Positions 1-34,323 of a DNA stretch of 64,000 nucleotides are shown here, piece after piece. Below the pieces are notes generated by a model. That model did no database searches. It was not told where the DNA came from and saw only the letters and a list, made by a program, of their open reading frames with translations. Numbering within the stretch: position 1 is the stretch's first letter; each line of letters opens with the position of its first letter. Source of the stretch: an uncultured bacterium (GTDB lineage: Bacteria; Muiribacteriota; Ozemobacteria; Ozemobacterales; Ozemobacteraceae); NCBI GenBank assembly GCA_964483805.1, contig CAZADH010000001.1:28724-92723 (forward strand), read 5' to 3'. A program made the translations under genes and the position numbers.

Positions 1-1227
1 GTGCCCCGGGCGGTGCGTGGCGACCCGAACCGGTTGCGTCAGGTCCTCACCAATCTGGCCGGCAATGCCATCAAGTTTACGGAAACCGGTGAGGTGGTCA
101 TCCGTGTCGATCCGGTCGAGGTGAATCCCACCGACACCATCGTGCGGTTCTCGGTCACCGACACCGGCATCGGCATTCCCACTGATCGCGTCAATCGCCT
201 GTTCAAGAGTTTCTCGCAGGTCGATGCCTCGATGACCCGCAAATACGGAGGGTCCGGATTGGGGCTGGCGATCAGCAAACGGCTGGTGGCCTTGATGGGT
301 GGCGCCATCGGCTTTGACAGCCGGCGCGGCGCGGGTTCGACCTTCTGGTTCACCGCGCGGCTCGGGGTGCGCCCCGGTGTGGTCGAGGCCCCCGTCGATC
401 CGCTGGTGAAAGGGCAACGCCTTCTTCTGGTCGAAGGGCACGGTGCCACCCGCGAATCGTTGCAGGTCATGCTGAAACAGTGGGGTTGTGCCATTGACAC
501 CGTGGTCGAGGGCAAGAATGTCGAGTCGCTGCTCGTCGAGGCACAGAGTGGAAGTCGTGCATACAATGTAGTTCTCATTGGCAGTGATCTGCCCGATATC
601 TCATGTGATGAGTTGGGCCGACGGTTGCGACAGAATCCGCTGTTGCACGAGATGCGCCTGGTGCTCCTGTCGTACTGGGGACAGCACGACGATCCGACGT
701 TCTGGCGTGGGGCCGGGTTCTCCGGCATCCTCACCCGGCCGGTGCGACGCCGGCAGTTTGTCGAGTTGTTGCGGCGGCTCTGTGTGGGCGGCGATGCGGC
801 GGGCGCGGTCGTGGAAGGTGATGGCGAGCGCGGACTGGGCGAGCGCGTGTTGGTGGCGTTGGTCGATTCCGGTGAGCGCGACCAGGTGGCGAAGGTGTGT
901 GCCGATCACGACTGGACCCACCTGCTCGTCGAGAACACCCACGACTTGCTGCTCGAGATCCTGACCTCGAATCCTAAGTTGTTGATCGTCGAGTTGCGCG
1001 GTGGCGATTTCGACGGGACCGAATTGGCCGAGGCGATCCGCCGACTCGAGCTTGGGCGCGACCGTCGGGTGCCGATGATTGCCGTGACGGCACCAATGAC
1101 CAAGTCGCAGCAGGCCCGCGCCATGATGGCGGGGGTCGACGAGATCCTGGTCCGACCTTTGTCGGCCGATGCTGTGGCCCAGGCGTTTCGGCGCCGCCTG
1201 CTGGCGACGAAGGAAGGCGACAATTGA
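1..1227 (+). CDS. Hybrid sensor histidine kinase/response regulator; 5'-truncated by the window edge, with a HATPase_c C-terminal part followed by two receiver-like domains
   Basis: ATP-lid motifs NLAGNAIKF...DTGIGIP...GGSGLGLAISK are visible, followed by two CheY-like receiver segments. The ORF runs from position 1 without a start codon and ends at TGA 1225-1227. Confidence 0.8.
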   Translation: MPRAVRGDPNRLRQVLTNLAGNAIKFTETGEVVIRVDPVEVNPTDTIVRFSVTDTGIGIPTDRVNRLFKSFSQVDASMTRKYGGSGLGLAISKRLVALMGGAIGFDSRRGAGSTFWFTARLGVRPGVVEAPVDPLVKGQRLLLVEGHGATRESLQVMLKQWGCAIDTVVEGKNVESLLVEAQSGSRAYNVVLIGSDLPDISCDELGRRLRQNPLLHEMRLVLLSYWGQHDDPTFWRGAGFSGILTRPVRRRQFVELLRRLCVGGDAAGAVVEGDGERGLGERVLVALVDSGERDQVAKVCADHDWTHLLVENTHDLLLEILTSNPKLLIVELRGGDFDGTELAEAIRRLELGRDRRVPMIAVTAPMTKSQQARAMMAGVDEILVRPLSADAVAQAFRRRLLATKEGDN

Positions 1228-2426
1228 GCGGCACGCAACGCGCTGTCCACCTGCTCGTTCTCGTCGTCGTGCTGTTGACGGCATCGTCACCGACGACGGC
1301 CGACAATGCGCCCAAGGAGTGGCTCGGCAACAAGTTTCCGGTCGTGTGGCCGCCGAGCGCGTATCAGGGCCGGCCGCTGCCGGCACTCGACCGCTTGTTT
1401 CATCGCACCGATGGGTGGACGGGTGGCGACGGCATCTACTCGGTGCGCCTGGCCCCGACGCGGGTGCTGTGGCTGTTTTCCGATAGTTTCGTCGGCAGTC
1501 TGGTGGACGGCAACACGCGGCGTGGGTCGACGATGATCCACAACGCCGTCGCGATTCAAGACGGCGACGATCCGATGGTGGTGCGACCACGGTTTTATTA
1601 CCGTACTACGAAGGATGGTAAGCCGGCTTCGTTTATCGACGCGCCCGACGGGCGGGGGTTTGTCTGGATCTACGCCGGGGCGATGACCACGCGTGGCTTG
1701 TATTTCTTTCTCATTCAGATCGAACCGACCAGCGATGTGCAGGCGTTCGGGTTTCGCTCGATCGGCATGTGGCTGGCCCATGTGGCTGATCCCAGTGGTT
1801 CACCGAGTCACTGGCGCATTACGACCACGCGAGTCCCTGGCAGTGTGTTCACGCCCGGTTTGAATCGTATCTGGGGTTCGGCGATGCTCGAGCACGACGG
1901 GTTCATCTATATCTATGGCACCGACGAGGAGTTGCCGGCCACGGCGACGACGAGCAAGCGGTTGATCGTGGCGCGCGCGCCGGTCGATCATCTGGGTGAC
2001 TTTGCGCAGTGGCGGTATCGCTGTGGCAACGCGTGGGTCGATGACCCGGCGCGCGTGACGCCGCTGACCTCGGGCATGGCCAACGAGTTCTCGGTGACTT
2101 GCAGCGAACGGCATCGCGACTTTGTCATGGTGCTCAGTGAGAGCGGGTTGTCGTCGCGCATCGTGCGCCGGCGGGCCCGGCATCCCTGGGGGCCGTGGGA
2201 CGCGCCGCGGTGCGTCTTCGCGGTCGAGATGCCCGTCCCGCCGCCACACCAGTTGTTCACCTATGCGGGCAAGGCCCACGCGGTCTTCAAGCTCGGCCGG
2301 CACGAACTGGTCGACCCCGACGAGATGGTGGTCAGTTACGTGATCAACTCGTGCAACTTTGCCGATCTCATCAACGATGCCACCCTGTATCGACCACGCT
2401 TTGTCGCCTGCCGGCTGTGGCCGTAA
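1224..2426 (+). CDS. Secreted hypothetical protein, possibly a DUF4185-like beta-propeller or glycosidase-like fold
   Basis: Candidate TTG start at 1224, overlapping the stop of the upstream kinase. An N-terminal hydrophobic signal-like segment (LLVLVVVLLTASSPTTA) is present. A DGWTGGDG motif was noted; family assignment is from memory only. Confidence 0.45.
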   Translation: MSGTQRAVHLLVLVVVLLTASSPTTADNAPKEWLGNKFPVVWPPSAYQGRPLPALDRLFHRTDGWTGGDGIYSVRLAPTRVLWLFSDSFVGSLVDGNTRRGSTMIHNAVAIQDGDDPMVVRPRFYYRTTKDGKPASFIDAPDGRGFVWIYAGAMTTRGLYFFLIQIEPTSDVQAFGFRSIGMWLAHVADPSGSPSHWRITTTRVPGSVFTPGLNRIWGSAMLEHDGFIYIYGTDEELPATATTSKRLIVARAPVDHLGDFAQWRYRCGNAWVDDPARVTPLTSGMANEFSVTCSERHRDFVMVLSESGLSSRIVRRRARHPWGPWDAPRCVFAVEMPVPPPHQLFTYAGKAHAVFKLGRHELVDPDEMVVSYVINSCNFADLINDATLYRPRFVACRLWP

Positions 2427-2508
2427 TCGCGGGGCGCCGTCGCTGAGCTCGCCCTGCCGCAGGGCGCCGAGGTGTCGCGGGTCGTGGGGGAAATGGTGCT
2501 GAAACAAA

Positions 2509-2540
2509 CCGGCCGCCCGCTTCATCGAGCGGACGGCCGG
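2509..2540. terminator. Bidirectional intrinsic-terminator-like hairpin between convergent genes
   Basis: 13-bp stem with one mismatch (CCGGCCGCCCGCT / AGCGGACGGCCGG) and a 6-nt loop. On the minus strand it is followed by TTTGTTTC, so it lies downstream of the thiolase/DUF35 operon. Confidence 0.5.
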
Positions 2541-2565
2541 CGGCAGACAAGCGATATTTACAATA

Positions 2566-2904
2566 TCAACCTTTTGTAAATATCATGCCGTGGAACTTCT
2601 GATAGCCTTCCTGGCGGACGGTGCCGATGTGGCCCTTGACCTTCATGCCGATCTTGGGTTCGTCGATATCGAGTTGGGCGGTGATCCGCTGGCCGTTTTC
2701 GAGTTCGACGATGCCGAGTGACAAGGTCAATACATCGAAGTCGGCGGGCAGGGTGTGCAGACGCGTGAAGGTCAGCAGTTTGCCGTTGGTCGGCAGGGGT
2801 TGCGTGTCGAACTCGTGATGGCCGCACTTGCGGCAGCGCGAGCGGTTCGGGTAATGCAGGGTCGAGCACTTCTTGCAGGCGTAGCCGAGAATCTGTTTGT
2901 CCAT
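2566..2904 (-). CDS. DUF35-family Zn-ribbon/OB-fold protein, the partner protein of SCP2-type thiolases
   Basis: Zinc-ribbon signature C-x2-C...C-x2-C (CKKCSTLHYPNRSRCRKCGH) followed by an OB-fold-like region. Its ATG lies 3 nt after the TGA of the upstream thiolase reading frame. Confidence 0.8.
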   Translation of the reverse strand: MDKQILGYACKKCSTLHYPNRSRCRKCGHHEFDTQPLPTNGKLLTFTRLHTLPADFDVLTLSLGIVELENGQRITAQLDIDEPKIGMKVKGHIGTVRQEGYQKFHGMIFTKG

Positions 2905-2907
2905 GGC

Positions 2908-4080
2908 TCACTCCTTCACGAAGACGAGGCAGACGACGTTGTTGCCGAAACCGCCGAAGTTGCAGGTGAAGCAGACCTAGGCGTCTTTGACATGGCGCTT
3001 CTTCGCTTAGCCGCGCAGTTGCAGGACGATCTCGTGGGCCTGGCCGATGCCGGTCGCGCCGACCGGATGGCCCTTGGCCTTCAGACCGCCCGAGGTGTTG
3101 ATCGGCAACTTGCCGCCCAACTTCGTGTCACCCCGTTCGAGGGCGAGGTGGCCCTCGCCCTTCTTGAAGAACCCCACCTCTTCGCTTTCGACGATCTCGA
3201 GGATCGTGAACGCGTCGTGCAGTTCGGCGACATCGACATCGGACGGCTTCAGTTTCGCCATGCCGAATGCCTTGGCGGCCGCACCGCGCACCGCGAGCAG
3301 ATCGGTGGGTTCGGTGCGGTCATGCACCACGTGCGTGTCGGTGGCCTGACCGACCCCGGCGAGGCGCACCATCGGTTTGCCGAGTTTCTTGGCGACCTCT
3401 TTGCTGGCCAGGATGACGCTGGCGCCGCCATCGGAAACGGGGCAGCAATCAAAGAACCGCAATGGTTCAGCGACGTACGGGTTGTTGGTCGGCGCGTCTT
3501 TCGAATCGAGAATACCTTCGAGTGTAATACTTTGTCGGACATGCGCAAACGGGTTGAGCAGCGCGTTTTCGTGGTTCTTCACGGCGACCATACCCAGATG
3601 GCGTTCGGTCACACCGTATTTCTTCATGTACAGGCGGGTGAACATGCCGGCAAGTGACGGCAGGGTGACGCCGTAGATCGCTTCAGCCATCGGGTGGGTG
3701 AGCGAGGCGACGAAGTCGGTCGCCTCGAGGTTGTTGACCTCGCTCATGCGCTCGGCGCCAGTCACCATGACGATGTCGTGAAGCCCGGAGGCGATCGCCA
3801 TGTAACCTTGCTTGATTGCCGACGCGCCCGAGGCCGGACCATTTTCGATGGTTTCGGCACCGGCGGGGGTCAGGCTGAGATGATCGACGAGTGCGCTTGC
3901 CAGGCCGGTCTGGTGATTGACGCGGCCGCCGCCCATATTGGCAACGTAGAGATGATCGATGGCGTTCAGTCCGGCGTCTTGAAGAGCCATGATCGACGGA
4001 TAGGCGGCGATTTCGACGAGCGGATACTCGAGGCGGGTGAACGAGGTGATGCCCACGCCCACGACATAGACGTCACGCAT
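2908..4080 (-). pseudogene. Thiolase (acetyl-CoA C-acyltransferase-like, SCP2/DUF35-associated type) interrupted by two in-frame stop codons near the C-terminus. The uninterrupted ORF is 3007..4080.
   Basis: N-terminus MRDVYVVGVGITSF, plus GHPVGATG and thiolase-like core. In the same frame, after ...QLRG comes TAA (3007-3009), then AKKRHVKDA, then TAG (2977-2979), then VCFTCNFGGFGNNVVCLVFVKE and TGA (2908-2910). The tail resembles the conserved thiolase C-terminus (KDAKVGLTHNGGG-like), which normally contains the second catalytic Cys. Confidence 0.7.
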
Positions 4081-4852
4081 GTTTGCCCTCCTTCTTCTTG
4101 CCGGCGGCTTTCTGCTGGGCATCGGCGGCGCCGACGCGCAGAGCGGTGCCGGTCGAGTCGCGGCGGGCCCGGGTGGCCGCGAGCCAGTCGGCGGGTGCAT
4201 GCGGCGGATCGTGCGGCGGCAGAATGCCGGCCATCGCCTTGGCGAGCAGGTCTTTGGGGACCGGGCGCTCGCCGACGATCAAGCTGTCGCGGGCTCTCTC
4301 GAAGAGTTCGCGGGTGAGCGCATACGAAGGCACACCACCCAGTTCATGCGACATCTCGAAGCGCTTCTCGAGTTTGTACTCGATCATCCAGCGGCGAAAA
4401 CCGATCGGCGACTCGGCGACGACCAGCACTTCTTTCTGCTTCAGGATATCGATGTGGTATTCCATTTTGGCGGCGAATGCGTGCGCACCCACGCGCAGAC
4501 CACGGCGCAGCGCCAGCGTGTGATATGACATGCCGATGTCTTTGTTGACGAGCCGGCCGTTGACGATCGCGGCCAGTTCGCCATCGATCTGGGCGACCAG
4601 AACATATTCGTCCTGGACGCGGTGTCGGTAATAACCGAGCAACTCGGCGTAAACACGGGCCGCAACGATGTCGTAATAGTCGCGCTCCATGTGCAGCAGC
4701 GGCTCGACGTGCGGCAGTAGCGATGGCATGTCATCACGCCCCACCTGGCGGATGACCATCTTCTCGCCGCTGGCCAGCGTCACCACCTTGGGTGGAAACG
4801 GCGGCATGGGACTGTCGACCGGACGTAACGCTTTCTCGAGATCAACCGACAT
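4073..4852 (-). CDS. Hypothetical protein, possibly a GNAT-fold acyltransferase, translationally coupled to the thiolase
   Basis: An AAGGAGG ribosome-binding site sits 7 nt upstream of the ATG at 4852. The stop overlaps the thiolase ATG (ATGCGTGA). Only weak GNAT-like features are visible. Confidence 0.4.
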   Translation of the reverse strand: MSVDLEKALRPVDSPMPPFPPKVVTLASGEKMVIRQVGRDDMPSLLPHVEPLLHMERDYYDIVAARVYAELLGYYRHRVQDEYVLVAQIDGELAAIVNGRLVNKDIGMSYHTLALRRGLRVGAHAFAAKMEYHIDILKQKEVLVVAESPIGFRRWMIEYKLEKRFEMSHELGGVPSYALTRELFERARDSLIVGERPVPKDLLAKAMAGILPPHDPPHAPADWLAATRARRDSTGTALRVGAADAQQKAAGKKKEGKHA

Positions 4853-4936
4853 CAATTCCCCTCCTTGTGAAGTGAAGACGTACTTAAATTCTAGCACGCC
4901 CAGACGGGGGGTAATTGGTGGGCGAGGAACGATTTC

Positions 4937-6214
4937 CTATCTCTCCAGGGTCGCGAGTCGGCTGAAGATGCCGTCGACGAACTCCTCGAGCCAGGTGCTG
5001 CCCAGCAGCGGGTTTTGAAACAGGCCGATGATCGTGCCGTGGTCGCGGGTCGCGACCGTGCCCATGTGGGTCCAGATGCCGGGCTGGACGGGTCCGGTGG
5101 CCCAGTCGACGATCGGACTGTTGGCGGGGCCCCGCATCGAGAGCGTATTGACGATGCCGTCGTTGGGTTGCCATGCGCCGGCCTGGCCCGGCGGCACGGC
5201 CCTGCCCGCGTAGTTGCCCATCGCGGCGGCAGCCGGCCAGAGCACGGGGTTCATGTGCATGTCGGCGAGGTTGATGTCGGTGCCGGGCAACCGGTAGGTC
5301 ATGCGATTGCTGTAACTCATGTAGTAAATACAAGGGAATACGCGGATCTGCCGATTCAGTTCGTGGGCGCCTTTGATCGACAGATCCCACGACGAGATGT
5401 CGCGGGTGTTGCCGAGCGTACGGCGCGCGCGCGAAAGAAAAGCGGAGACGCTTTCGCCGGGTTGTCGTTGCAGATCCCATTGGTCGAGATCGAAGTCGCA
5501 GACGATGTTCTCACTTCCGCTGGCCAGGGCCATGACCGCGGCGAGGATCTTCTCGGCCTGGTGCCAGAGCAGGTTGCCGACGATCTCGACCAGCGTGGTG
5601 CCGTTGTGCGGAGTCGAGATCGTGGTGAGCGAGAACACCCAACGTTCATTGGTGCCGGCGCCGAAGTAGTCGCGGGCGAGCAACTCGGTGAGCAGGCGGA
5701 TCGTCTGGCCACCCATGCTGTGGCCGACCAGGTGGACCGGGTGGGCGGCGTCCCATTGCGGATACAGCCCGGGCCAGGTCTCCCCGAATCGTTTGTGGCC
5801 AAAGGCCGCCGCGTGCTGCTCGCCGAAATCGAGGCGGCCTCCCTTGATCTGCCAGAACAGTTCGCAGGCGCGATCGTGGTTCGATGAATACGGCCCGACC
5901 GAGGCGGTGAGACCGCGCATACCGTAGGTTGCCACGCGCTTCTCGATGTCGAGAATGGTGCCGCCCCAATACAGGAAACCGAGCATCTCGTCGCGGCCCC
6001 AGCCATTGAAGCCGTGCACGAGGACGACGGGGCAGTCGCGCCCGTGCACGCGCGATTCGGCGGCGCCGGCGAGGATCGGTGCGGTCACGCCCAGGACGAG
6101 CAACAGCGCGACGCAGGCTCCTGGCAGATGCCGCAACCCCTTGGTTTTGGGGAACGCGCAGCCGGATCGGTCGTTTAGCGTGGTCAGGCTCGGAGGGCGA
6201 GGGTCGTGAAACAT
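4937..6214 (-). CDS. Secreted alpha/beta-hydrolase, triacylglycerol lipase family
   Basis: Oxyanion and nucleophile motifs LVHGFNGW and GHSMGG with an N-terminal signal peptide; resembles Gram-positive-type lipases. Confidence 0.75.
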   Translation of the reverse strand: MFHDPRPPSLTTLNDRSGCAFPKTKGLRHLPGACVALLLVLGVTAPILAGAAESRVHGRDCPVVLVHGFNGWGRDEMLGFLYWGGTILDIEKRVATYGMRGLTASVGPYSSNHDRACELFWQIKGGRLDFGEQHAAAFGHKRFGETWPGLYPQWDAAHPVHLVGHSMGGQTIRLLTELLARDYFGAGTNERWVFSLTTISTPHNGTTLVEIVGNLLWHQAEKILAAVMALASGSENIVCDFDLDQWDLQRQPGESVSAFLSRARRTLGNTRDISSWDLSIKGAHELNRQIRVFPCIYYMSYSNRMTYRLPGTDINLADMHMNPVLWPAAAAMGNYAGRAVPPGQAGAWQPNDGIVNTLSMRGPANSPIVDWATGPVQPGIWTHMGTVATRDHGTIIGLFQNPLLGSTWLEEFVDGIFSRLATLER

Positions 6215-6323
6215 ACATTTTACATATTGAGCAACACGCCCATGGTATCACGACGCTGCGCAACGCGTAATCAATCGCGGATCGACGCTTGAGATTGCCG
6301 CCGCGACACGGTACGATACGCGC

Positions 6324-7970
6324 ATGTCGAATCTGTTGAAAATGATCGGTGCCGCGCTCTGTCTGTACCTTTTGTTCTTCCACGCCATTGGCGATCTGCC
6401 GTTGATCGACCCCGATGAACCGTTCTACGGCCAGGTGGCCAAAGAGATGGCGCGGGGTGCAGGTTGGCTGACGCCGCACTACGACGGCAAGGTGTTCTGG
6501 GACAAACCACCGCTCTATTACTGGTTGTCGGGTTACACCACGGCGGTGTTCGGTGCGAATGGATTGGGGGCGCGTCTGCCGGCGGCGGTGGCAGCCGTGC
6601 TGCTGACCCTGCTCGTGGGTGCCTGGGCCGCCGCGGAGTTCGGTGCGACGGTGGCTGTTTTTGCGGCTGCGGTGTTTGCCACGTGCCTGCACGCGATCAT
6701 CTTGTCGAAGGCTGCGGTGACCGACATGGTGCTCGCGCTCAACCTGGCGAGTGCTTTGTATTGCTATCGGTGTTGGTTGCGTGCCGAGGGTTCCGCGACC
6801 TACGTGTGGGCAGCGGCCTTCGGGGTGGCGGCGGGGCTGGCCCTGCTGACCAAGGGTCCGCTGGCCTTCATTCTGCTTGCCGTTGCCCTGACCATTCACC
6901 TGGTGACGTCCGGGCAGGTGGCGAAGCTCGAGCGCGGTGGGGCGACCGGGGTCGGCATGGCCCTGGTCGTCGGTCTGCCGTGGTTCATGACAATGTATGG
7001 TGTTCATGGCGATTCGTTCGTGCAGAAGTTCATCATCGCCAACAACTTTGGCCGGTTCTTCAGTGCCGAACACCCGGAGATCACCGGGGGCTGGTACTCG
7101 TACCTGATGAACTTTCCGACGTTGCTGCTCTTCTTCTTCCCGTGGAGCCTGTTTCTGCCCCAGGCACTGCTGCACGCCTGGCGTCGCGACGACCCCGATG
7201 CGCGGTTGCCGTTGATCTGGCTGGTGACCGTTTTTGCGTTCTTCTCGACTGCGAAGACGCAGTTGGTCACCTATATCTTTCCGCTGTATCCGGCGGCCGC
7301 GGTGCTGGTCGGGCGCTATTGGCACGACGCATTGGCGGCCGATCACGCACCCGCCGGTTTGCGTCGCGGCGTGCTGGGGGTCGTTGGTTTTTCGGCGTTT
7401 CTCGGCATTGGTCTGGCCGGCACCGCGGCGGCAAAGTATCCGGGGGCTGAGTTGGTTGGCCTGGGCCTCGGGTTGATTGCCGTGGCGGCGAGCGTGCTGG
7501 CACTGCGTCAGTTCGATGGCTACGTCGGAACCGCAGGTGCGGCGGGCCAGAGTGGTGGCGCGGTGATCTTCCAGCCGCGGCCCGCGGTGTTCTGGGCGTT
7601 GGCGGTCGGCATGGTGCCGTTCGCGGTCTACCTGATGAGTGTGCTGTTTCCGCGGGCCTTGCCGTTTGTCAGTACCGATGAGTTGGCGCGGGTCGTGCGC
7701 TCACGGTTTGCTGCCGCCCAGGTCGTGGCGTTGAAACTGGGGCATCGCACCAGCCTGCTCTACAACTTCGACTTCCAGCCGATGCCGACCGAGAGCATCG
7801 CCGAAGCGCGGCAGCGCTTTGCTTGTCTTGGCCCGGTGGTGGTTTTGTGCCAAGACAAGTTCGTCGACCAGGTGGCGTCGGCAACGGCGCCGGTCGCGCG
7901 GCAAGGCAAGATCGTGGCCTTGGCCAACACGGCGGCGTTGGCGGCCGCACAAGAGAACTGCGTGCGTTGA
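6324..7970 (+). CDS. Family GT39/GT83 glycosyltransferase (ArnT/PMT-like 4-amino-arabinose or mannosyl-transferase family), polytopic membrane protein
   Basis: N-terminal DPDEPFYGQVAKEM...WDKPPLYYWL motif typical of ArnT/PMT enzymes, with many hydrophobic helices. Confidence 0.8.
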   Translation: MSNLLKMIGAALCLYLLFFHAIGDLPLIDPDEPFYGQVAKEMARGAGWLTPHYDGKVFWDKPPLYYWLSGYTTAVFGANGLGARLPAAVAAVLLTLLVGAWAAAEFGATVAVFAAAVFATCLHAIILSKAAVTDMVLALNLASALYCYRCWLRAEGSATYVWAAAFGVAAGLALLTKGPLAFILLAVALTIHLVTSGQVAKLERGGATGVGMALVVGLPWFMTMYGVHGDSFVQKFIIANNFGRFFSAEHPEITGGWYSYLMNFPTLLLFFFPWSLFLPQALLHAWRRDDPDARLPLIWLVTVFAFFSTAKTQLVTYIFPLYPAAAVLVGRYWHDALAADHAPAGLRRGVLGVVGFSAFLGIGLAGTAAAKYPGAELVGLGLGLIAVAASVLALRQFDGYVGTAGAAGQSGGAVIFQPRPAVFWALAVGMVPFAVYLMSVLFPRALPFVSTDELARVVRSRFAAAQVVALKLGHRTSLLYNFDFQPMPTESIAEARQRFACLGPVVVLCQDKFVDQVASATAPVARQGKIVALANTAALAAAQENCVR

Positions 7971-23506: not shown

Positions 23507-23826
23507 TTTGGGCGGTCGTCCACCCGGGCCGAATACATAGCATGGAACCGGGGTGCCTCGTCAAGTCCGGTTTCTGTGGCTTTCATGCGGTGGCTAAACA
23601 AGCGGATGTCTGCGTGCAACCAACCATAATACGATACGCCTGAGTTCCACAGTGTTGATGCTGGACAACGCCCTGGACCCTGGGATAGAATCATCATCGA
23701 GAAGTTTCGCGGGTGTCCGTTTCACATGCCGAGGGCGGCACGCAGCAGTTTTCGTGTGCGGCGCCACGATTCCTGAACCGGGCAACCAGACACAGGGTAA
23801 CGAGCCACATTTCACGGAGAGCGATC

Positions 23827-26800
23827 ATGCACCCCATCTACACCTCCCGCTGGGTGATCCTCACTGTCGTCTGTTGTATTGCTGCCGCCTTGATCGGCTG
23901 CGCCCTGCGCGGTCCTGAGTCGGCGGGCGTTGGCGTGTCGACCACGCCGGCACCTGCAGCGGTGGCGACGACAGGGGCGGCCGACGTGTTGCTCTCGTTT
24001 CAGGTCTCGACGACGGCGACGCCGACCACCCAGGCTGCTGTCCGGGCGGCCGCAGGGCCGGCGAGCGTGAGATTCCGCCTTCTGACGTTGAACATCGGCC
24101 AACCGGCACTACCGACGATTGCAACAGAACAGACTATTCTTGTTCCCCCGTCCGGGCGGGTTTCAGCGACATTTACCGCCGTTCCGGCACTGCCCACGAT
24201 CGCTCAGGTCGAGGGAATCAACGCCGTGATTGGCTCATACAGCACTTTCCATGGCGCACGCGACCTGCACGTCGGTGCCAATGTGATCACGGTTGCGCCG
24301 GTCGGATCGAACTGGCGGCACGACATCGCTGCCCAGGTTCTGGAAAACGCCATTCTTGATGCGACGGTGTTTGCGAAGCTGACCGCAACGGCTGCCGCGA
24401 CGGCCCTGAACGTTGCGGACGCGATCGATCGTAGCCAGCCGGCAGCCCCTCAGGATGCCGTGCGGGCTTTCGTGAGGGCGGTTGCCCCGCCACGGTGGGC
24501 GCTGTCGGCGGCAACGATTCTCTCCGCGCAGACCCGGGCCCTCGCGGCCGCCGGGCAACCGGCAAACGCAGTGACCATGTGGGTTCCAGGCGACACCTAT
24601 GTGACCGAGAGCTGTAGCCAGGAGAGTCTCGCGCGCATCTGCGGCTGGAGCACGCCCGCCGAACTCGACGTGGTTGCGTCGCTCCAGGCCGATGGAGCGG
24701 GCGAAGGAACGGCGGCCCGCTCATCGACTCGCGCCGTCACCCTGCCCGCAAGCATCGACTGGCGGAACCGAAACGGGACCGATTGGCTGGGCGGCGTGCG
24801 GAATCAGTTTCCCCGCCCCACGAGCGTGGCATTTGCGTGCTGTTCGACGCTCGAGGCCATGGCGCGAATCGACGCGAACCTTCCGGACTTCGACCTTTCG
24901 GAGTGGTTCCTCATGCGCTTCGGTCAGGCCAACGCGCCCGGTCTTCTCGATCAGGGTTGGAGCATCCAGCAAGCGTTGGAAGTACTGAAAACGAGCGGTA
25001 CGGTGTCAGAAAAGACCGTTCCCTATGGCTTGATCCCCTTCTACAATGCGCCGCCCGAGACTTCGCGCCGGTTTCGGGCCGCCAGTTATCAGCTGCTGCA
25101 GGGGACCGACGCCATCAAGCAGGCGCTTCAGGCGGGGCCCGTCATCACCGGCATGCGCGTATACGAGGATTTTGCCAGATACTCGAGTGGGATCTATTGG
25201 CACGCCGAGGGCAGACAGGTCGGGCACCAGGCGATTGTGCTCGTTGGCTACAACGATGCTGACGGGTGCTGGATTGCCAGGAACTCCTGGTCATCGAACT
25301 GGGGAGAGAACGGATACTTCCGCATCCGGTTTGGCGAACTGGGAGCCCGCGCCTATCAGGTCCGGTTTTCGTTCACAGATCCCGTTCCGGCGGCGCCCGC
25401 AGGTTTGACGGCGGTGCCAGGGGATCGCGAAGCAACGCTTTCCTGGTCGGCAACCTCTGGTGCGCGATCCTATACTCTCTACTATGGATCGACCCAGGGG
25501 ACCCGACGGGAAACGGGCGTGCGGGTTGGCGGAGTCACCAGTCCGCATCGATTGGGCGGTCTCCAGAATGGAACGACGTACTACTGTGTATTGACATGTG
25601 AGAACGAAACCGGGGAGTCAGCGTTGTCGCAAGAGATGAGCGTCACGCCTCGAGACCCGGCGGCGCTCATTCCTGCCAATGCTCATGCCGTTGCCGGCGA
25701 CCGCGCGGTCACCGTGACGTGGTCATCCGTGGCGCCGGCTTCGAGTTACCGCCTCTACTGGTCGACAACGCCAGGATCGGCCCGCTCCAGCGGTACCGTC
25801 ATCGATAATGCGAATTCTCCGTTCAGTCACACCGCGTTGGCCAATGGAACCACGTATTACTATCAGGTGACCGCGATCGTGGGCGGCGTCGAGTCGGGTC
25901 CCTCGCCCGAGTTCAGTGCGCGCCCCTGGCCCGGACTCCCGGGCGCCCCCACGGGCCTGCGTGCCGATGCCGGCAACGCACAGACGACCGTGTCGTGGAA
26001 CCCGGTCGCCGGCGCCGATCGCTACAATCTCTATTTCAGCAATGTTGCGACCGTCAACCGCACGAGCACGCTGATCGCTTCGGTGTCGAGTCCGTTCGTG
26101 CATCGGGACCGCCCCAATGGCACAACCGTGTATTACGTCGTCACCGCGGCAAACATGGCCGGGGAGTCGGCGGAATCGACGGCCGCTGCAGCCACTCCCG
26201 TTTTGCCGGCACCGACCGGAGTCAACGTGGTGCGCGGCTCGAGCGCGGTGACTGTGAACTGGTCACCGGTTCCTGGATCATCGGGCTACAACATTTATTA
26301 TAGCGAGTCGCCGCTGGCGTTGCGTACTGCAGGTGTTCCCGTCCGCAACGTGCAACCCGGAACGAGCATCACGGGTCTGGTCAACGGGCGCACTTACTTC
26401 TTTCAAGTCACGGCTCTCGACACCAGTGTCGAATCGGTGGGCTCGATGGTGGCCTCCGATCAGGCCATGCTGGCGCCGGCCAGCAACCTGCGGGTCAGTG
26501 GGACGCGTGGTCGCATCGGCGTCACCTGGGACGCCAACGTGGGCACCACCTACGGTATCAAACTGTACTACTCGATCGACAACGGCACGACCTGGCTTGC
26601 GACCACCCACGTCGAGGGCGCAACAACGGGTATTGCACCGGGAACGAATCAAAGCGTCAACTGGGTGTCGCACCAGGATTTCGCCGCGAACCAGGGGCAG
26701 GTGCGTGCCCGCGTGGTTCTCAACGACGGCGTCATGGATTCTCCCCCGATCGACTCGGGCGCCTTTACCATCGATAACCGGGTCATCGTCACTTCGGTTA

Positions 26801-29010
26801 CGTCGAACACCTCAGACGGCGTCTATGGTCCGGGTGCCGCGATTGATGTTCAGGTGACATTCTCGACGCCGGTTCTGGTCACCGGCACCCCACAATTACT
26901 TCTCGAAACCGGGGTTACCGATCGGCAGGCCAGTTACCTCTCGGGAAACAACAGCAATACGTTGTCGTTCCGATACGTCGTGCAGAACGGAGATGTCGCC
27001 AGTGACCTCGATTTCGCAAACTCGGCCGCACTGGCGCTCAACGGCGGCACGATTCGTGACGACGCCGGGAACAACGCGACACTGACGCTGCCCGGCCCCG
27101 GCGCCGCCGGTTCGCTCGGCGCCGCCAAAGCAATCGTGGTCGATGGAATCGCCCCGACCCTGGTGTCGGTGACCTCGACTTCGCCGGACGGCGACTATGG
27201 ATCGGGACGCGGCATCAATGTGACGTTGAACTTCTCGGAACCTGTCACGTTGGCCAACGGAGACCTCCGCCTCGACTTTGATACCGCCGGTTCGGCGACA
27301 GTCGCTCCGTTCGCCCCCGCCGCGGCGGCCAGTACGACATACGTTGTAAGTGCACCCGAGGCGAGCGCCGATCTCGACACCGTCGGACTGACACTGGTTG
27401 GCGGGGCAACCCTGCGCGATGCCGCTGGCAATGACGTCGCACTGGCCATTCCCGTCGGCCAGTCTCTGAAAGACAGTCGGGCATTGGTGGTCGATACGAT
27501 TCCGCCACAGATTCAGTCGATCAGACGCGAGATCCCGCTGGCGACTACAACCAATGCTCTCTCGGTTACGTGGCGGGTGACCTTCAGCAGGGCAATCGAT
27601 CCGACTACGGTCCAGCTCAGCGACTTCACCTTGGGCAATTCACCGAACACGATCGTCGACGAAGCTTTGAACGGGTTGAGCCAGGTCGATGCAACATCAT
27701 GGGATGTCACCGCAACAACGGGCACATCGGGAGACGGCACTCTCAGTCTCGGAAGCTATCCTGGCAATGGAGCCGACATCAGAGACGCCATCGGTAATCC
27801 GTACGCTGGGGCAATGGGCCCGCGTCAAAACTACACGATCGACAAGACGCCGCCGACGTTCGTGGCGATGGTTCCGTTTGACACCAACGCTGTCGATCTG
27901 AAGTTCAGCGAGAATATGGTTGGGTTGACAACCCCCGGCGGCATCAGCGTGTCGGGTGCAGGTATCAACTCCTTGTCCGCAACACCGGACACTATCGCGT
28001 CGGTTTCCATCGTAACCGGAATGTACCGACTCGAATGGGCAACCGGGGCAATGTTGGCGGACAGCACACTGACCGTGTCGACCTCGGGCCTGACCGACGT
28101 CGCGGGAAACAGTATTCAAGGGGTGACCAGCATTACCGACCAGACCCCCTTGATGTTCATTGACACGGTGGTAGTTGGCGACCCGGGCAATCAGTCAGAC
28201 CCGGTTGGTTACGGTGGAGTGGCAGTCGCATTCCGCATCGGGAAGTATGAGATTACCAATACACAATATTGCACATTCCTGAATGCTGTGGCACAGACGG
28301 ACACCTACGGTCTCTACTACACGCTGATGGCCGGAACGCCTGCCAGCAACCGAGGGGGGATCGATCGTTCGGGGTCATCAGGAAGTTACGTGTATTCGGT
28401 CGTCGCCAACATGGGAGACAAGCCTGTCAACTACGTGAGTTTCCTCGGTGCCGCAAGATTTGCCAACTGGATGCACAACGGTGGCCGCAATGGTGGCAGT
28501 ACAGAGACCGGGGCTTACACGATCACCGGAGGCGGTGACAATGCCGGCACGGTTGGGGGCCGCCAGAACGGGGCCCGGTTTTCGATCCCGAACGCGAGTG
28601 AGTGGCACAAGGCCGCACATTACAAGGGAGGAGGCACGAACAGCGGCTATTGGCAGTTCGCGACCCAGAGCGATGCCACGCCGACTGTTGCCCTTGCAAA
28701 CCCTGTAGGTAGTGTCAGTAACCCTGGAGTGAACGTCGCGAACTATGACATGGGAGCAGTTTGGAACGGACAGAACGCCAACTTCACGACGGTAGGGAGT
28801 TGTGGTGCATCATCCTGCAGCGCCTATGGCACTGCAGACCAGACCGGCAATGTGTCGGAGTGGACCGAGACCTATCCCTCCAGCCCGCCTTTTCGAGCCA
28901 CTCTTGGCGGCAATTCGCAAAGTCCGGGGTCTTGGCTTCGTTGGACAGCTCTCGCTGGCACGGACCAGACAGAGCGTTTTGCTCTCTACGGTTTTCGTGT
29001 TCGCCGGTAA
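23827..29010 (+). CDS. Giant multidomain lipoprotein, paralog 1 (about 1727 aa). Domain order: N-terminal domain, papain-like C1 peptidase, ~5 FN3 repeats, one BNR/Asp-box, bacterial Ig-like domains, C-terminal FGE-sulfatase/SUMF1-type domain.
   Basis: Lipobox LIGC; ribosome-binding site GGAGA 6 nt upstream. C1 motifs NQ...AFACCSTLEA and GHQAIVLVGY...NSWSSNWGENGYFRI. FN3-like ...LSWSAT..ARSYTLYY. Asp-box SIDNGTTW. C-terminus YRIGKYEITN...GFRVRR typical of the FGE-sulfatase fold. Confidence 0.8.
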   Translation: MHPIYTSRWVILTVVCCIAAALIGCALRGPESAGVGVSTTPAPAAVATTGAADVLLSFQVSTTATPTTQAAVRAAAGPASVRFRLLTLNIGQPALPTIATEQTILVPPSGRVSATFTAVPALPTIAQVEGINAVIGSYSTFHGARDLHVGANVITVAPVGSNWRHDIAAQVLENAILDATVFAKLTATAAATALNVADAIDRSQPAAPQDAVRAFVRAVAPPRWALSAATILSAQTRALAAAGQPANAVTMWVPGDTYVTESCSQESLARICGWSTPAELDVVASLQADGAGEGTAARSSTRAVTLPASIDWRNRNGTDWLGGVRNQFPRPTSVAFACCSTLEAMARIDANLPDFDLSEWFLMRFGQANAPGLLDQGWSIQQALEVLKTSGTVSEKTVPYGLIPFYNAPPETSRRFRAASYQLLQGTDAIKQALQAGPVITGMRVYEDFARYSSGIYWHAEGRQVGHQAIVLVGYNDADGCWIARNSWSSNWGENGYFRIRFGELGARAYQVRFSFTDPVPAAPAGLTAVPGDREATLSWSATSGARSYTLYYGSTQGTRRETGVRVGGVTSPHRLGGLQNGTTYYCVLTCENETGESALSQEMSVTPRDPAALIPANAHAVAGDRAVTVTWSSVAPASSYRLYWSTTPGSARSSGTVIDNANSPFSHTALANGTTYYYQVTAIVGGVESGPSPEFSARPWPGLPGAPTGLRADAGNAQTTVSWNPVAGADRYNLYFSNVATVNRTSTLIASVSSPFVHRDRPNGTTVYYVVTAANMAGESAESTAAAATPVLPAPTGVNVVRGSSAVTVNWSPVPGSSGYNIYYSESPLALRTAGVPVRNVQPGTSITGLVNGRTYFFQVTALDTSVESVGSMVASDQAMLAPASNLRVSGTRGRIGVTWDANVGTTYGIKLYYSIDNGTTWLATTHVEGATTGIAPGTNQSVNWVSHQDFAANQGQVRARVVLNDGVMDSPPIDSGAFTIDNRVIVTSVTSNTSDGVYGPGAAIDVQVTFSTPVLVTGTPQLLLETGVTDRQASYLSGNNSNTLSFRYVVQNGDVASDLDFANSAALALNGGTIRDDAGNNATLTLPGPGAAGSLGAAKAIVVDGIAPTLVSVTSTSPDGDYGSGRGINVTLNFSEPVTLANGDLRLDFDTAGSATVAPFAPAAAASTTYVVSAPEASADLDTVGLTLVGGATLRDAAGNDVALAIPVGQSLKDSRALVVDTIPPQIQSIRREIPLATTTNALSVTWRVTFSRAIDPTTVQLSDFTLGNSPNTIVDEALNGLSQVDATSWDVTATTGTSGDGTLSLGSYPGNGADIRDAIGNPYAGAMGPRQNYTIDKTPPTFVAMVPFDTNAVDLKFSENMVGLTTPGGISVSGAGINSLSATPDTIASVSIVTGMYRLEWATGAMLADSTLTVSTSGLTDVAGNSIQGVTSITDQTPLMFIDTVVVGDPGNQSDPVGYGGVAVAFRIGKYEITNTQYCTFLNAVAQTDTYGLYYTLMAGTPASNRGGIDRSGSSGSYVYSVVANMGDKPVNYVSFLGAARFANWMHNGGRNGGSTETGAYTITGGGDNAGTVGGRQNGARFSIPNASEWHKAAHYKGGGTNSGYWQFATQSDATPTVALANPVGSVSNPGVNVANYDMGAVWNGQNANFTTVGSCGASSCSAYGTADQTGNVSEWTETYPSSPPFRATLGGNSQSPGSWLRWTALAGTDQTERFALYGFRVRR

Positions 29011-29056
29011 TCGGTCCCGTTTCCCAAACCATCCCTATCGATCTCGGAGACTGCTA

Positions 29057-32000
29057 ATGTCTGGTTATCACCGCACGAACCTTGTGGGTGTAATCTGCGG
29101 CTTGTTTCTTGCATCAATGTTCGTTAGCCTCGGGTGCTCGATCGATGGTCGAGGTCGAGGAGGGATCGGAACCGACTTGACCACCACGCATTCGGTCGAC
29201 TCCCATTCCGCGAACGTGTCATTCGCTTTTCAAGTGACTCCCATCGCATCGGGACCGGCCATCCCGGTGCATCCCGCCGTATTCGCGCCCGGCGAGATGA
29301 CCGTGAGTTTTCGGCTGTTGACACTGAACATCGGCAATGTGTTGGCGCCGACCACGGCCACCGAGCAGACCGTGATCGTGCCGTCGAGTGGCCTCGTCAC
29401 CGCGCATTTCGGCGCCGTGCCAATGCGCAGCACCGTCGCCCAGGTCGAGCTGCGGGGTGCCTCGATCGCCTCGTTCTCGCGCTTTCACGGCGCACGCGAC
29501 CTCGGCCCCGGCAGCAATGTCATCACCGTGGCGCCGGTCGGTTCAGGATGGTCGAACGATCTGGCGGCCCATGCCCTCGAGACCGCGGCCCTGTCGCCAG
29601 TTCTGTTCGCGCGGTTGCCGGCATCCGCTGCTGCAGTCGCACTGCAAGTGGCCCTGCAACAGGACCGGTCGCGCGCGAACCTGCAGCAGGAGATGGTGCA
29701 AGCCTTTTCACAGGTTTTGAATCCCCCTCGATGGAGCCTGACCGGTGAGGCCATTCGGAGCGCACAGATTCAGGCTCTTGCTGCCCGAGGACAGATCGCC
29801 AATGACGAAACGACATGGACCGCCGGTGACACGTTCGTGACCCGCATTGCCGGTCAGAACGAGTTGGGCATGTGGTGTAGCTGGAACACCCCCACGGAGT
29901 TTTCGGTCGCGGGAAACATCAAGAATTCGACGGCCGTTGATGCCGGTGTCCGTGCCAGCACCCTGCCGCGCGTGCTCGATTGGCGGAACAAGAACGGCCG
30001 CAACTGGTTGCCCCCAGTGCAGAATCAGTATCCCCACTCGACCGGAGTGGCCTTCGCCTGCTGCAGCGCTCTGGAGACCATGGCCCTGATCGAGGGGAAC
30101 CTGGAAGGCGTCGACCTTTCGGAGTGGCAACTCATTCACGAGGGCCAACCCAACGAGTCGCAACGTCTGACCGGCGGTTGGAGTTTTCGCCCGGCGTGTG
30201 ACCATTTGGCCCAGGTCGGAGTGGTCAGCGACGCTCTGCTGCCCTACCACACGATCCCGCACTTTTCGACACCTTCGCCCGGCGCCCGCGTCTATCGCGC
30301 GGCATCGTATGTTCTGGCGCAGGGTTCCGATGGCATCAAACAGGCTCTGCAAGAGGGACCGGTCCTGGCCGGCATCAGGGTGTTCGAGGACTTCATGCGC
30401 TATACCGGAGGCGTCTACTGGCACGCCGCGGGTCAGGAGGTCGGCTTTCAAAGCATCCTTCTGGTCGGGTATGACGACGACCGGGAGTGTTGGATCGGCC
30501 GCAACTCCTGGTCGATCGACTGGGGCGAGCTGGGCTATTGCCGCATCCGCTACAGTGAGGCGCAGATCGATCGCGGCTATCTCGTGCGCTTCGCATATCA
30601 GATCCCCGCTCCCGCTGCGCCGGCCTCAGTCGCGGTTTCGATCGGCGATCGGGGAGCTCTCATTTCATGGCCGGTCGTTGCCGGCGCCACCAACTACAAC
30701 CTCTACCATGACACGATTCCCGGTCGACCAATTTCGAGCGGGGTCCGCATTTCGAACGTGACGAGTCCATACCGGCTGACAGGATTGACCAATGACGCAA
30801 CGTATTACGTTGTAATTACGTCCGAAAACAGCACCGGAGAGTCTCCCGGCTCGCCCGCGCTGCACGTGACGCCGCGCCCGCCGAGTGTTCTGACCGTGGC
30901 CAGTGCCTCGGCTGTCGCCGGCGATGGAACGGCTACCGTGTCGTGGTCACCGATCCCTGGGGCTGCCAGCTATAACCTCTTCTGGGCCGCAACCCCTGGC
31001 CAGGTCAGGTCTAGCGGCGTGCGGATTGCCGGTGTCGCAAGCCCCTTCACACATACACCGCTGACCAACGGTAACACGTATTACTACCAGGTGACCGCCA
31101 TCGTTAACGGCATTGAGACCGCGCCATCATCTGAGATCAGCGCACGACCGTGGCCGCGCATTCCCGATGCCCCTGGAAACGTGGTGGCCACCGCAGGCAA
31201 TGGTCAGGTTTCCATCGCATGGCCGCCGGTCGCGGAAGCTACGAGTTACAACGTCTACTCCGGATCATCGGCCAATCTCACCCGCCTGAACGGAACGCGG
31301 GTTACAGGAGTTGCGACCCCGTTCATTCATTCGGGAGTTGCGAACGGGTCCCGCCTCTACTACCTGGTCACTGCCGAAAACGCCGCCGGTGAGTCTGTCG
31401 AATCGATAGTCGTTGCGGCGACACCACAGTTGCCTTCGCCAGCAGACGTCAGTCTGGTTCGTGGCTCGACCCAGGTCACTGTCAACTGGTCGGCCGTTCC
31501 CGGTGCACTCGCTTACAATCTTTACTACGGCGAAAGCGCAACGGCACTGCGCACCACGGGCACGATCGTACGCAACGTGCAATCGGGCCGAACCATCACC
31601 GGGCTCGTCAACGGACGTTCGTACTACTTTGTGGTTACGGCCATCGATCAGAACGTCGAGTCGGCTGATTCGGTCATCCAGTCCGATCAACCGATCCTCG
31701 CGCCGGCTACAAACCTTCGCGTGACCGGGAACCGTGGCCGGATCACCCTCACGTGGGATGCGGTCACGGGCATCAACTATGGCGCGAAAGTGTTCTATTC
31801 ACTCGATGGCGGCACATCCTGGAGTCCGACCACGCACCTCGAAGGCACGTTGTCGGGCATCACGCCAGGCTCCGATCGCTCGCTGACCTGGGTCTCGCAT
31901 CAGGATTTCACCGCGCTGCAGACCCAGACCCGGGTTCGCTTGGTCCTTAATGATGGGGCCGTCGATGCCAACCCCATAGACTCGTCCGCATGGTCTGTGG

Positions 32001-34261: not shown

Positions 34262-34323
34262 TTGTTTGTGAACGGGCGGCTTCTTCGGCCTCGAAAGAGT
34301 TCGGGGCGACAGGTGGTGCAAGC

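What the first reader, a model, noticed from the sequence alone, without database searches (positions are those of the whole stretch)
2908..4080. Thiolase gene with two independent in-frame nonsense codons (TAA 3007-3009, TAG 2977-2979) in the last ~37 codons, within an otherwise intact translationally coupled operon
Translating through the two stops restores a typical thiolase C-terminus: ...QLRG[E]AKKRHVKDA[K]VCFTCNFGGFGNN...VKE, then TGA, with the ATG of the DUF35 partner 3 nt later. This is the expected arrangement. Each stop is one transversion from a plausible sense codon (GAA to TAA, AAG to TAG).

The lost segment would include the C-terminal CxxGG region, which normally carries the second catalytic Cys. 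The truncated product is therefore probably inactive.

Possible explanations are a recent pseudogene, sequencing or assembly errors, or stop-codon readthrough/suppression. Two different stop codons both being suppressed would be unusual.
Basis: seen in the sequence. Interest (0 to 1): 0.5.

Follow-up and report, generated by a model that had tools for sequence, protein, structure and literature searches.

The report
Four-base lesion truncating a thiolase-like gene
The two stop codons are really in the sequence, but they belong to one 37-base patch of four changes found only in this assembly, so this is a sequencing/assembly error or a very recent knock-out, not a new way of decoding.

Summary
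A minus-strand gene runs from 4080 to 2908. It has in-frame TAA (3009-3007, codon 358) and TAG (2979-2977, codon 368). Reading through gives a normal C-terminus, then TGA, then the DUF35 ATG 3 nt later.

The stops are not independent. Against 78 orthologs, the window has only four residues never seen elsewhere, all within 13 codons: E358*, Q363H, K368*, G370C. Each is a single N>T change on the coding strand. Four contigs about 95% identical in DNA carry GAG, CAG, AAG and GGT there. Outside the patch, these contigs differ from the window at 49 synonymous and 2 non-synonymous codons. Codons 371-390 are identical.

TAA and TAG end other genes in the window, so the code is standard. No ortholog has a stop at either site.

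My best reading is an error patch in the deposited metagenome assembly (about 0.5). The main rival is one very recent clustered mutation (about 0.35). Only reads can separate them. Readthrough is very unlikely (about 0.02).

Aside: the whole family has Pro where thiolases have the nucleophilic Cys. It sits in a conserved trio of a GNAT-fold protein, the thiolase-like protein and DUF35.

The parts
2908..4080 (-). Thiolase-like gene of 390 codons plus TGA, interrupted at codons 358 and 368.
   Evidence: Translation. Pfam Thiolase_N and Thiolase_C_1. PDB hits 7yvy at 2.4e-79 and 6esq at 2.6e-67. 78 orthologs at 78-84% amino-acid identity.
3007..3009 (-). In-frame TAA, codon 358. Relatives have GAA or GAG (Glu).
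2992..2994 (-). CAT (His), codon 363. 77 of 78 orthologs and all four near-identical contigs have Gln (CAG or CAA). The changed base is 2992.
2977..2979 (-). In-frame TAG, codon 368. Relatives have Lys or Arg, and the near-identical contigs have AAG.
2971..2973 (-). TGC (Cys), codon 370. Gly in 78 of 78 orthologs, and GGT in the near-identical contigs. The changed base is 2973.
2908..2976 (-). The tail of the gene downstream of the second stop: codons 369-390 plus the natural TGA. Codons 371-390 are identical in DNA to the near-identical contigs. The tail encodes the last two beta-strands and the CNFGG motif.
2566..2904 (-). DUF35 partner of 112 aa (zinc ribbon plus OB fold), intact, starting 3 nt after the thiolase TGA.
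   Evidence: Pfam zf-ChsH2 and OB_ChsH2_C. Present after the thiolase-like gene in 78 of 80 loci. 11 synonymous and 2 non-synonymous codon differences from the near-identical contigs.
4073..4852 (-). Upstream 259-aa protein with no Pfam match and a GNAT-like fold. Its stop overlaps the thiolase start by 8 nt.
   Evidence: AF2 pLDDT 77. Foldseek best hits are the GNAT acetyltransferases RimJ, PA3270 and SpeG, E about 3e-7. Found upstream in 78 of 80 loci.
2508..2541 (-). Intrinsic-terminator-like hairpin (14 pairs, 11 G-C) with a T-rich tail, after the DUF35 gene. It marks the end of the operon.
4937..6214 (-). Lipase-like gene (Lip_C, 425 aa) upstream on the same strand. It ends in a functional TAG. 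It is not a conserved neighbour of the trio.
   Evidence: Pfam. 0 of 80 loci have it. Stop usage.

Best explanation
The gene is a normal member of a very strongly conserved thiolase-like family. In this one deposited assembly it carries a single 37-nt patch of four N>T substitutions, at window positions 3009, 2992, 2979 and 2973 on the coding strand. Two of them create stop codons.

I think the patch is most likely a base-calling or assembly error in a poorly supported stretch of a metagenome-assembled contig. On that reading, the organism makes the full-length 390-aa protein, and no special decoding is involved.

What is shown:
- The patch is private to this assembly.
- The changes are clustered and all go to the same base.
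- The rest of the gene and its partner genes show strong purifying selection.

What is inferred: that the patch is technical rather than biological.
For: 1. Across 390 codons, the only four residues unseen in any of 78 orthologs lie in codons 358-370. The chance of such clustering is 8e-5.
2. All four are single-base changes to T from codons common in relatives: GAA>TAA, CAG>CAT, AAG>TAG, GGC>TGC. A one-strand, one-base bias is what I would expect from degraded base calls. That rests on my own knowledge of Illumina error profiles, and I did not test it here.
3. Four independent contigs about 95% identical in DNA and syntenic over 3.3 kb are intact at all four sites (L082-L085).
4. Outside the patch, the window and these contigs differ at 49 synonymous and 2 non-synonymous codons. 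Codons 371-390 are identical, so there is no decay of the kind expected in an established pseudogene.
5. The DUF35 gene and the upstream 259-aa gene are intact and conserved.
6. An independent assembly (Logan) of run SRR12133404 reproduces both flanks at 100% identity: window 150-2488 and 3362-6384. It yields no contig with a complete gene across the 874 nt that hold the patch. That suggests locally weak or ambiguous read support.
7. Related contigs of this species group were assembled at about 3x coverage (contig name).
Against: - No reads or coverage are available for the window's contig, so read support is unknown.
- A contig of 121,952 bp suggests decent overall coverage. That makes a consensus patch of four errors less likely.
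- The four changes do not fit the 'lagging base' pattern of GGC-triggered Illumina sequence-specific errors (PMC3141275). I checked this by eye.
- The patch also holds six ordinary synonymous differences from the near-identical contigs. Only part of its divergence is therefore anomalous.
- The Logan gap could reflect strain variation rather than low coverage.
Confidence: 0.5

Rival explanations
1. The lesion is real and very recent. One multi-nucleotide mutation event, for example an error-prone repair or translesion patch or local oxidative damage, introduced all four substitutions at once. It truncated the protein at residue 357. The gene would then be a newborn pseudogene, and its partner genes have not yet decayed.
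For: - The stops are in the public record (P0001).
- Clustering and a shared direction of change are also what a single mutational event would give.
- The absence of any other damage fits an extremely recent event.
- One other disrupted copy among 80 loci, L046 with a frameshift near codon 346, shows that broken copies do appear in assemblies.
Against: - The family is among the most constrained proteins seen here: 78-84% identity across more than ten phyla, with 212 of 390 columns at least 95% conserved. A knock-out should be strongly selected against.
- Four substitutions in 37 nt in one event is rare. This rests on my own knowledge.
- G>T fits 8-oxoG damage, but the A>T at 2979 does not.
- Independent accumulation is excluded. 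After a first stop, further neutral hits should scatter over 1173 nt rather than over 37.
Confidence: 0.35
2. The 40-nt block 3010-2971 is a short imported or chimeric tract. It could come from gene conversion with a divergent or defective copy elsewhere in the genome. It could also arise if the assembler switched between co-occurring strains.
For: The block has 10 differences in 40 nt from the near-identical contigs, followed by 70 nt with none. The Logan assembly is fragmented exactly here.
Against: - No second copy or donor exists in the window: no 11-mer covering a mutated site recurs.
- No ortholog matches the patch better than it matches the flanks.
- Other 60-nt bins are just as divergent, for example 3340-3399 with 10 differences.
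- A functional donor would not supply stop codons.
Confidence: 0.07
3. Both stops are decoded, by suppressor tRNAs, readthrough or a variant code, and the full-length protein is made.
For: The downstream frame is open and conserved up to the natural TGA. This is expected under any of the explanations.
Against: - TAA (11 genes) and TAG (5 genes) terminate other genes in the window. One is the Lip_C gene of the same gene string.
- 0 of 78 orthologs and 0 of 4 near-identical contigs have a stop at either site.
- Two different stop codons would both have to be suppressed.
- The window has no tRNA gene and no Rfam element.
- No other in-frame stops were found in the window.
- Even if read through, the product would carry His363 and Cys370. 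Position 363 is Gln in 77 of 78 orthologs, and position 370 is Gly in 78 of 78.
Confidence: 0.02
4. The 357-aa truncated protein is itself functional, that is, a shortened variant of the family.
For: The His338 (GHP) motif and most of the fold lie before the stop.
Against: - The lost 33 residues form the last two beta-strands, 369-376 and 381-390, in the AF2 model of an 84%-identical ortholog. These are inner strands of the C-domain sheet in thiolase folds (sheet order 6, -9, 8, 7; PMC12329534).
- Residues 370-385 are at least 90% conserved.
- Every intact ortholog is 389-403 aa long.
Confidence: 0.03

Closest known systems
Archaeal-type acetoacetyl-CoA thiolase that works in a thiolase/HMG-CoA synthase/DUF35 complex (PDB 6esq/6et9; also 7yvy).
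   Same: These are the best solved-structure matches: 7yvy at 2.4e-79 and 6esq at 2.6e-67, aligned end to end. The fold has the same two domains. It shares the GHP His motif and the QLRGEA...NxGGxG C-terminus. A DUF35 gene lies immediately downstream.
   Different: This family has Pro82 where those enzymes have the nucleophilic Cys (ACASG versus GPASG). The third conserved partner is a 259-aa GNAT-fold protein, not an HMG-CoA synthase. In the window the gene is interrupted.
Thiolase-fold proteins without the Cys pair that bind a DUF35 domain: the steroid side-chain aldolases Ltp2 and Sal.
   Same: They have a thiolase fold, altered catalytic residues, and DUF35 as a structural partner (PMC12329534). 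Ltp2 (6ok1) matches at 1.3e-31.
   Different: The sequence relationship is much more distant. Ltp2 uses a YDHF motif and Sal uses Tyr302/Cys304, whereas this family has HDAF. There is no hydratase partner and no steroid-catabolic context here.
PhlABC Friedel-Crafts acylase (PhlC thiolase-like, PhlB DUF35, PhlA KAS III-like; PDB 5m3k).
   Same: It has a three-protein architecture of a thiolase-like subunit, DUF35 and a third acyl-CoA-related subunit. PhlC matches at 7.3e-21.
   Different: The third subunit has a different fold (GNAT-like here), and the sequence similarity is low.
Ordinary nonsense-disrupted genes in draft or metagenome assemblies, whether recent pseudogenes or consensus errors.
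   Same: The stops are private to one assembly. Close relatives have sense codons. The reading frame is preserved and the neighbours are intact.
   Different: Four same-direction substitutions within 37 nt is an unusually tight cluster.

Membership tests
Thiolase superfamily (archaeal/SCP2-like branch that pairs with DUF35) | Two-domain thiolase fold (Thiolase_N plus Thiolase_C) | tested here: met
Full-length PDB matches. AF2 model of an ortholog.
Thiolase superfamily (archaeal/SCP2-like branch that pairs with DUF35) | Nucleophilic Cys in the N-domain (the ACASG-type motif) | tested here: not met
   Pro82 aligns with the Cys of 7yvy. Pro is present in 78 of 78 orthologs.
Thiolase superfamily (archaeal/SCP2-like branch that pairs with DUF35) | Second catalytic Cys (C-terminal CxG motif, or HDCF in SCP2-type thiolases) | tested here: inconclusive
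   HDAF replaces HDCF in 78 of 78 orthologs. Cys373 (CNFGG) is present in 73 of 78 orthologs, but in the window it lies after both stops.
Thiolase superfamily (archaeal/SCP2-like branch that pairs with DUF35) | Active-site His in the GHP motif | tested here: met
   His338 is present in 78 of 78 orthologs.
Thiolase superfamily (archaeal/SCP2-like branch that pairs with DUF35) | Adjacent DUF35 (zinc ribbon plus OB) partner gene | tested here: met
   The partner is at window 2566-2904 and is present in 78 of 80 loci.
Established pseudogene | Disabling changes that are absent from orthologs | tested here: met
   Two stops at sites that are sense codons in 78 of 78 orthologs and in 4 of 4 near-identical contigs.
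Established pseudogene | Relaxed selection or decay spread along the gene and its dependent partners | tested here: not met
   49 synonymous against 2 non-synonymous codon differences outside the patch. Codons 371-390 are unchanged. DUF35 and the 259-aa gene are intact.
Established pseudogene | The lesion is supported by reads or by an independent assembly | not testable with these tools
   No reads are available. Logan contigs of the same run stop short of the patch on both sides.
Programmed stop-codon readthrough or codon reassignment | The stop codon is conserved at the site in relatives | tested here: not met
   0 of 78 orthologs and 0 of 4 near-identical contigs have a stop there.
Programmed stop-codon readthrough or codon reassignment | The codon is not used as a terminator elsewhere, and other in-frame occurrences exist | tested here: not met
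   TAA ends 11 and TAG ends 5 coding-like ORFs in the window. No other in-frame stops with coding flanks were found.
Programmed stop-codon readthrough or codon reassignment | Suppressor tRNA or a recoding RNA element | tested here: inconclusive
   The window has no tRNA gene and no Rfam match. The rest of the genome could not be examined.
Sequencing or assembly error | Private to one assembly, clustered, with same-base substitutions | tested here: met
Sequencing or assembly error | Low or one-sided read support at the sites | not testable with these tools
   The only evidence is indirect. The independent Logan assembly has no complete-gene contig across 2489-3361.

The most novel reading that the evidence does not exclude
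Both stop codons are decoded in vivo, by suppression or local recoding of TAA and TAG, so a full-length thiolase-like protein is still made from this allele.
Probability: 0.02. Interest if true: 0.7.

Novelty: already known. Interest (0 to 1): 0.15.

Why it matters
As a finding about decoding or gene structure it matters little. It is either an error in a deposited metagenome assembly or a newborn pseudogene, and both are ordinary.

Its practical value is as a quality flag. Anyone using this contig should treat the 357-aa 'thiolase' as suspect and check the reads.

If the lesion is real, it would be a small natural example of one clustered mutation event disabling an extremely conserved gene.

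The more interesting biology lies beside the finding. The gene family lacks the thiolase nucleophile yet is about 80% identical across many bacterial phyla. It always travels with an uncharacterised GNAT-fold protein and a DUF35 protein.

Tried and rejected
- Exact-product look-ups of the truncated protein, of P0001 and of DUF35 found no positions on record.
- I guessed the partial product that a Logan contig starting at window 3391 would encode. Nothing was found.
- A homolog search with only the C-terminal 127 residues returned only fragments at 88% identity or less. It gave no independent copy of this strain.
- A metagenome scan with a degenerate pattern spanning the patch returned only the already known ERZ795054 contig.
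- For template-switch or ectopic conversion, I looked for k-mers covering the mutated sites elsewhere in the window. No 11-mer recurs. The local DNA fold is weaker than its shuffles (z = +1.56), so there is no quasi-palindrome.
- No ortholog matches the patch better than the flanks, so none looks like a donor.
- A variant genetic code is rejected by stop-codon usage.
- GGC-triggered Illumina sequence-specific error (PMC3141275): a GGC does precede the first change, but the miscalls do not copy the preceding bases as that model predicts. This specific mechanism is therefore not supported.
- A diversity-generating retroelement is rejected. There is no repeat of the patch, and the changes are not adenine-specific.
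- A literature search for the trio of GNAT-fold protein, thiolase-like protein and DUF35 found nothing relevant.

Full report
**Observation**

On the minus strand, an ORF starts at ATG 4080-4078. It runs in one frame through TAA (3009-3007, codon 358) and TAG (2979-2977, codon 368) to TGA (2910-2908). Three bases later the next gene starts at ATG 2904.

The repaired 390-aa sequence matches Pfam Thiolase_N and Thiolase_C_1, the latter over residues 244-387. It aligns end to end with solved archaeal-type thiolases: 7yvy at 2.4e-79, 4yzo at 9.4e-74 and 6esq at 2.6e-67.

The downstream gene (2566-2904) is a DUF35 protein with a zinc ribbon and an OB fold. A strong terminator-like hairpin follows at 2541-2508.

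The one adjustment is that 33 codons are cut off, not about 37.

**The stops are not independent**

I collected 80 orthologous loci from one-genome-per-species contigs and translated them through the C-terminus.
- 78 usable orthologs, at 78-84% identity and from many phyla, all have sense codons at both sites.
- Codon 358 is E in 69, D in 5, and K, R or A in the remaining 4. Codon 368 is K in 51 and R in 25.

I then asked where in the whole protein the window carries a residue seen in none of the 78 orthologs. There are exactly four such positions, all within 13 codons:

| Codon | Change | Window codon | Orthologs |
|---|---|---|---|
| 358 | E to stop | TAA | E in 69 of 78 |
| 363 | Q to H | CAT | Q in 77 of 78 |
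| 368 | K to stop | TAG | K in 51, R in 25 of 78 |
| 370 | G to C | TGC | G in 78 of 78 |

Four random codons out of 390 fall within such a span with probability 8e-5. Each change is a single substitution to T on the coding strand, from a codon common among orthologs: GAA, CAG, AAG and GGC. The changed bases are at 3009, 2992, 2979 and 2973.

**Close relatives**

The DUF35 protein belongs to a 90% identity cluster whose representative lies on four short contigs from independent metagenome assemblies: JGI 3300010429, JGI 3300009776, ENA ERZ795054 and ENA ERZ27257455.
- These contigs are about 95% identical in DNA to window 417-3751, with the same gene order.
- All four read GAG, CAG, AAG and GGT at the four sites, so their gene is uninterrupted.
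- Over the 272 thiolase codons they cover, the window differs at 49 synonymous and 6 non-synonymous codons. Four of those six are the patch.
- Codons 371-390 and the junction with DUF35 are identical in DNA.
- DUF35 itself shows 11 synonymous and 2 non-synonymous codon differences.

The gene was thus under strong purifying selection for essentially all of the time since this lineage split from its nearest sampled relatives. There is no decay outside the 37-nt patch.

This rules out slow, independent accumulation of the changes. After a first stop, further neutral hits should scatter over the whole 1173-nt gene.

**Decoding**

The window uses all three stop codons as terminators: TGA 33 times, TAA 11 and TAG 5 among coding-like ORFs. 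The lipase-like gene just upstream ends in TAG.

A codon-usage scan finds no other in-frame stop with comparably coding-like flanks. There is no tRNA gene and no Rfam match in the window.

No relative has a stop at either site. Even a read-through product would carry His363 and Cys370 at positions that are invariant or nearly so. Readthrough or reassignment is therefore very unlikely.

**Effect of the truncation**

An AF2 model of an 84%-identical ortholog places a helix at 340-356. The last two beta-strands lie at 369-376 and 381-390. In thiolase folds these are inner strands of the C-domain sheet (order 6, -9, 8, 7; PMC12329534). Residues 370-385 are at least 90% conserved.

**Artefact or real mutation?**

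The truncated 357-aa product is on record from an NCBI contig of 121,952 bp, so the stops are in the deposited sequence.

An independent assembly (Logan) of run SRR12133404 reproduces window 150-2488 and 3362-6384 at 100% identity. It has no contig with a complete DUF35 gene across the 874 nt in between, which is where the patch lies. That points to locally weak or ambiguous read support, but it is indirect evidence.

I found no donor sequence in the window and no local hairpin. No ortholog matches the patch better than it matches the flanks. The changes do not fit the lagging-base pattern of GGC-triggered Illumina errors.

Favouring an artefact:
- The cluster is tight and all changes go to the same base on one strand.
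- There is no other damage.
- The family is extremely constrained.
- The Logan assembly has a gap exactly here.

Against an artefact: a long contig implies reasonable coverage.

I put an error patch at about 0.5, a single very recent clustered mutation at about 0.35, a short imported or chimeric tract at about 0.07, and readthrough or a functional truncated form at a few percent together. Read pile-ups would settle it.

**What the gene is**

Public annotations call the family 'acetyl-CoA acetyltransferase'. NCBIfam PRK06064 scores 415 bits, just under its cut-off of 420.

All 78 orthologs and the window have Pro82 where thiolases have the nucleophilic Cys (GPASG against ACASG in 7yvy). They have HDAF where SCP2-type thiolases have HDCF. 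His338 is invariant, and Cys373 is present in 73 of 78. The protein is therefore thiolase-like, not a demonstrated thiolase.

In 78 of 80 loci it is preceded by a protein of about 250 aa with no Pfam match. In the window this is 4852-4073, and its stop overlaps the thiolase start by 8 nt. In 78 of 80 loci it is followed by DUF35.
- The upstream protein has more than 3000 relatives, and every source-given name among the listed hits is 'hypothetical protein'.
- Its AF2 model (pLDDT 77) matches GNAT acetyltransferases in the PDB, such as RimJ, PA3270 and SpeG, at E about 3e-7.

The nearest known architectures are these:
- the archaeal thiolase/HMG-CoA synthase/DUF35 complex;
- PhlABC;
- the Ltp2 and Sal aldolases bound to DUF35.

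None has this composition. I found no paper on the trio.

**Verdict**

The phenomenon is ordinary: an assembly error or a newborn pseudogene. The interest score is low.

Noticed in passing
window 2566-4852 (minus strand); loci L001-L080: The 'thiolase' family has Pro in place of the nucleophilic Cys and HDAF in place of HDCF in 78 of 78 orthologs. It is still 78-84% identical across more than ten phyla, including Verrucomicrobiota, Ignavibacteria, Zixibacteria, Riflebacteria, Eisenbacteria, Elusimicrobia and Acidobacteriota. It sits in a conserved trio with an uncharacterised GNAT-fold protein of about 250 aa (no Pfam match) and DUF35. I found no literature on this trio.
   Followed up: partly
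window 23713-39483 (+): Three tandem paralogous giant ORFs of 1765, 1819 and 1741 aa. Each has a papain-like Peptidase_C1 domain, fn3 repeats and a C-terminal FGE-sulfatase domain. Their GC3 (about 0.70) is lower than in most other genes of the window.
   Followed up: partly
L046 (CAVYAC010000067.1), match 6001-7041: This is the only other disrupted copy among the 80 orthologous loci. It has a frameshift near codon 346, close to the same C-terminal region.
   Followed up: no
window 150-2488 and 3362-6384; L081, L086: Logan contigs of run SRR12133404 match the window at 100% identity but are only 2-3 kb long. They leave 2489-3361 without a complete-gene contig. This suggests low coverage or strain mixture in that run.
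   Followed up: partly
window 4937-6214 (minus strand): A lipase-like (Lip_C) gene lies 84 nt upstream of the trio on the same strand. It is absent from all 80 orthologous loci, so it is a lineage-specific neighbour and not part of the conserved module.
   Followed up: yes
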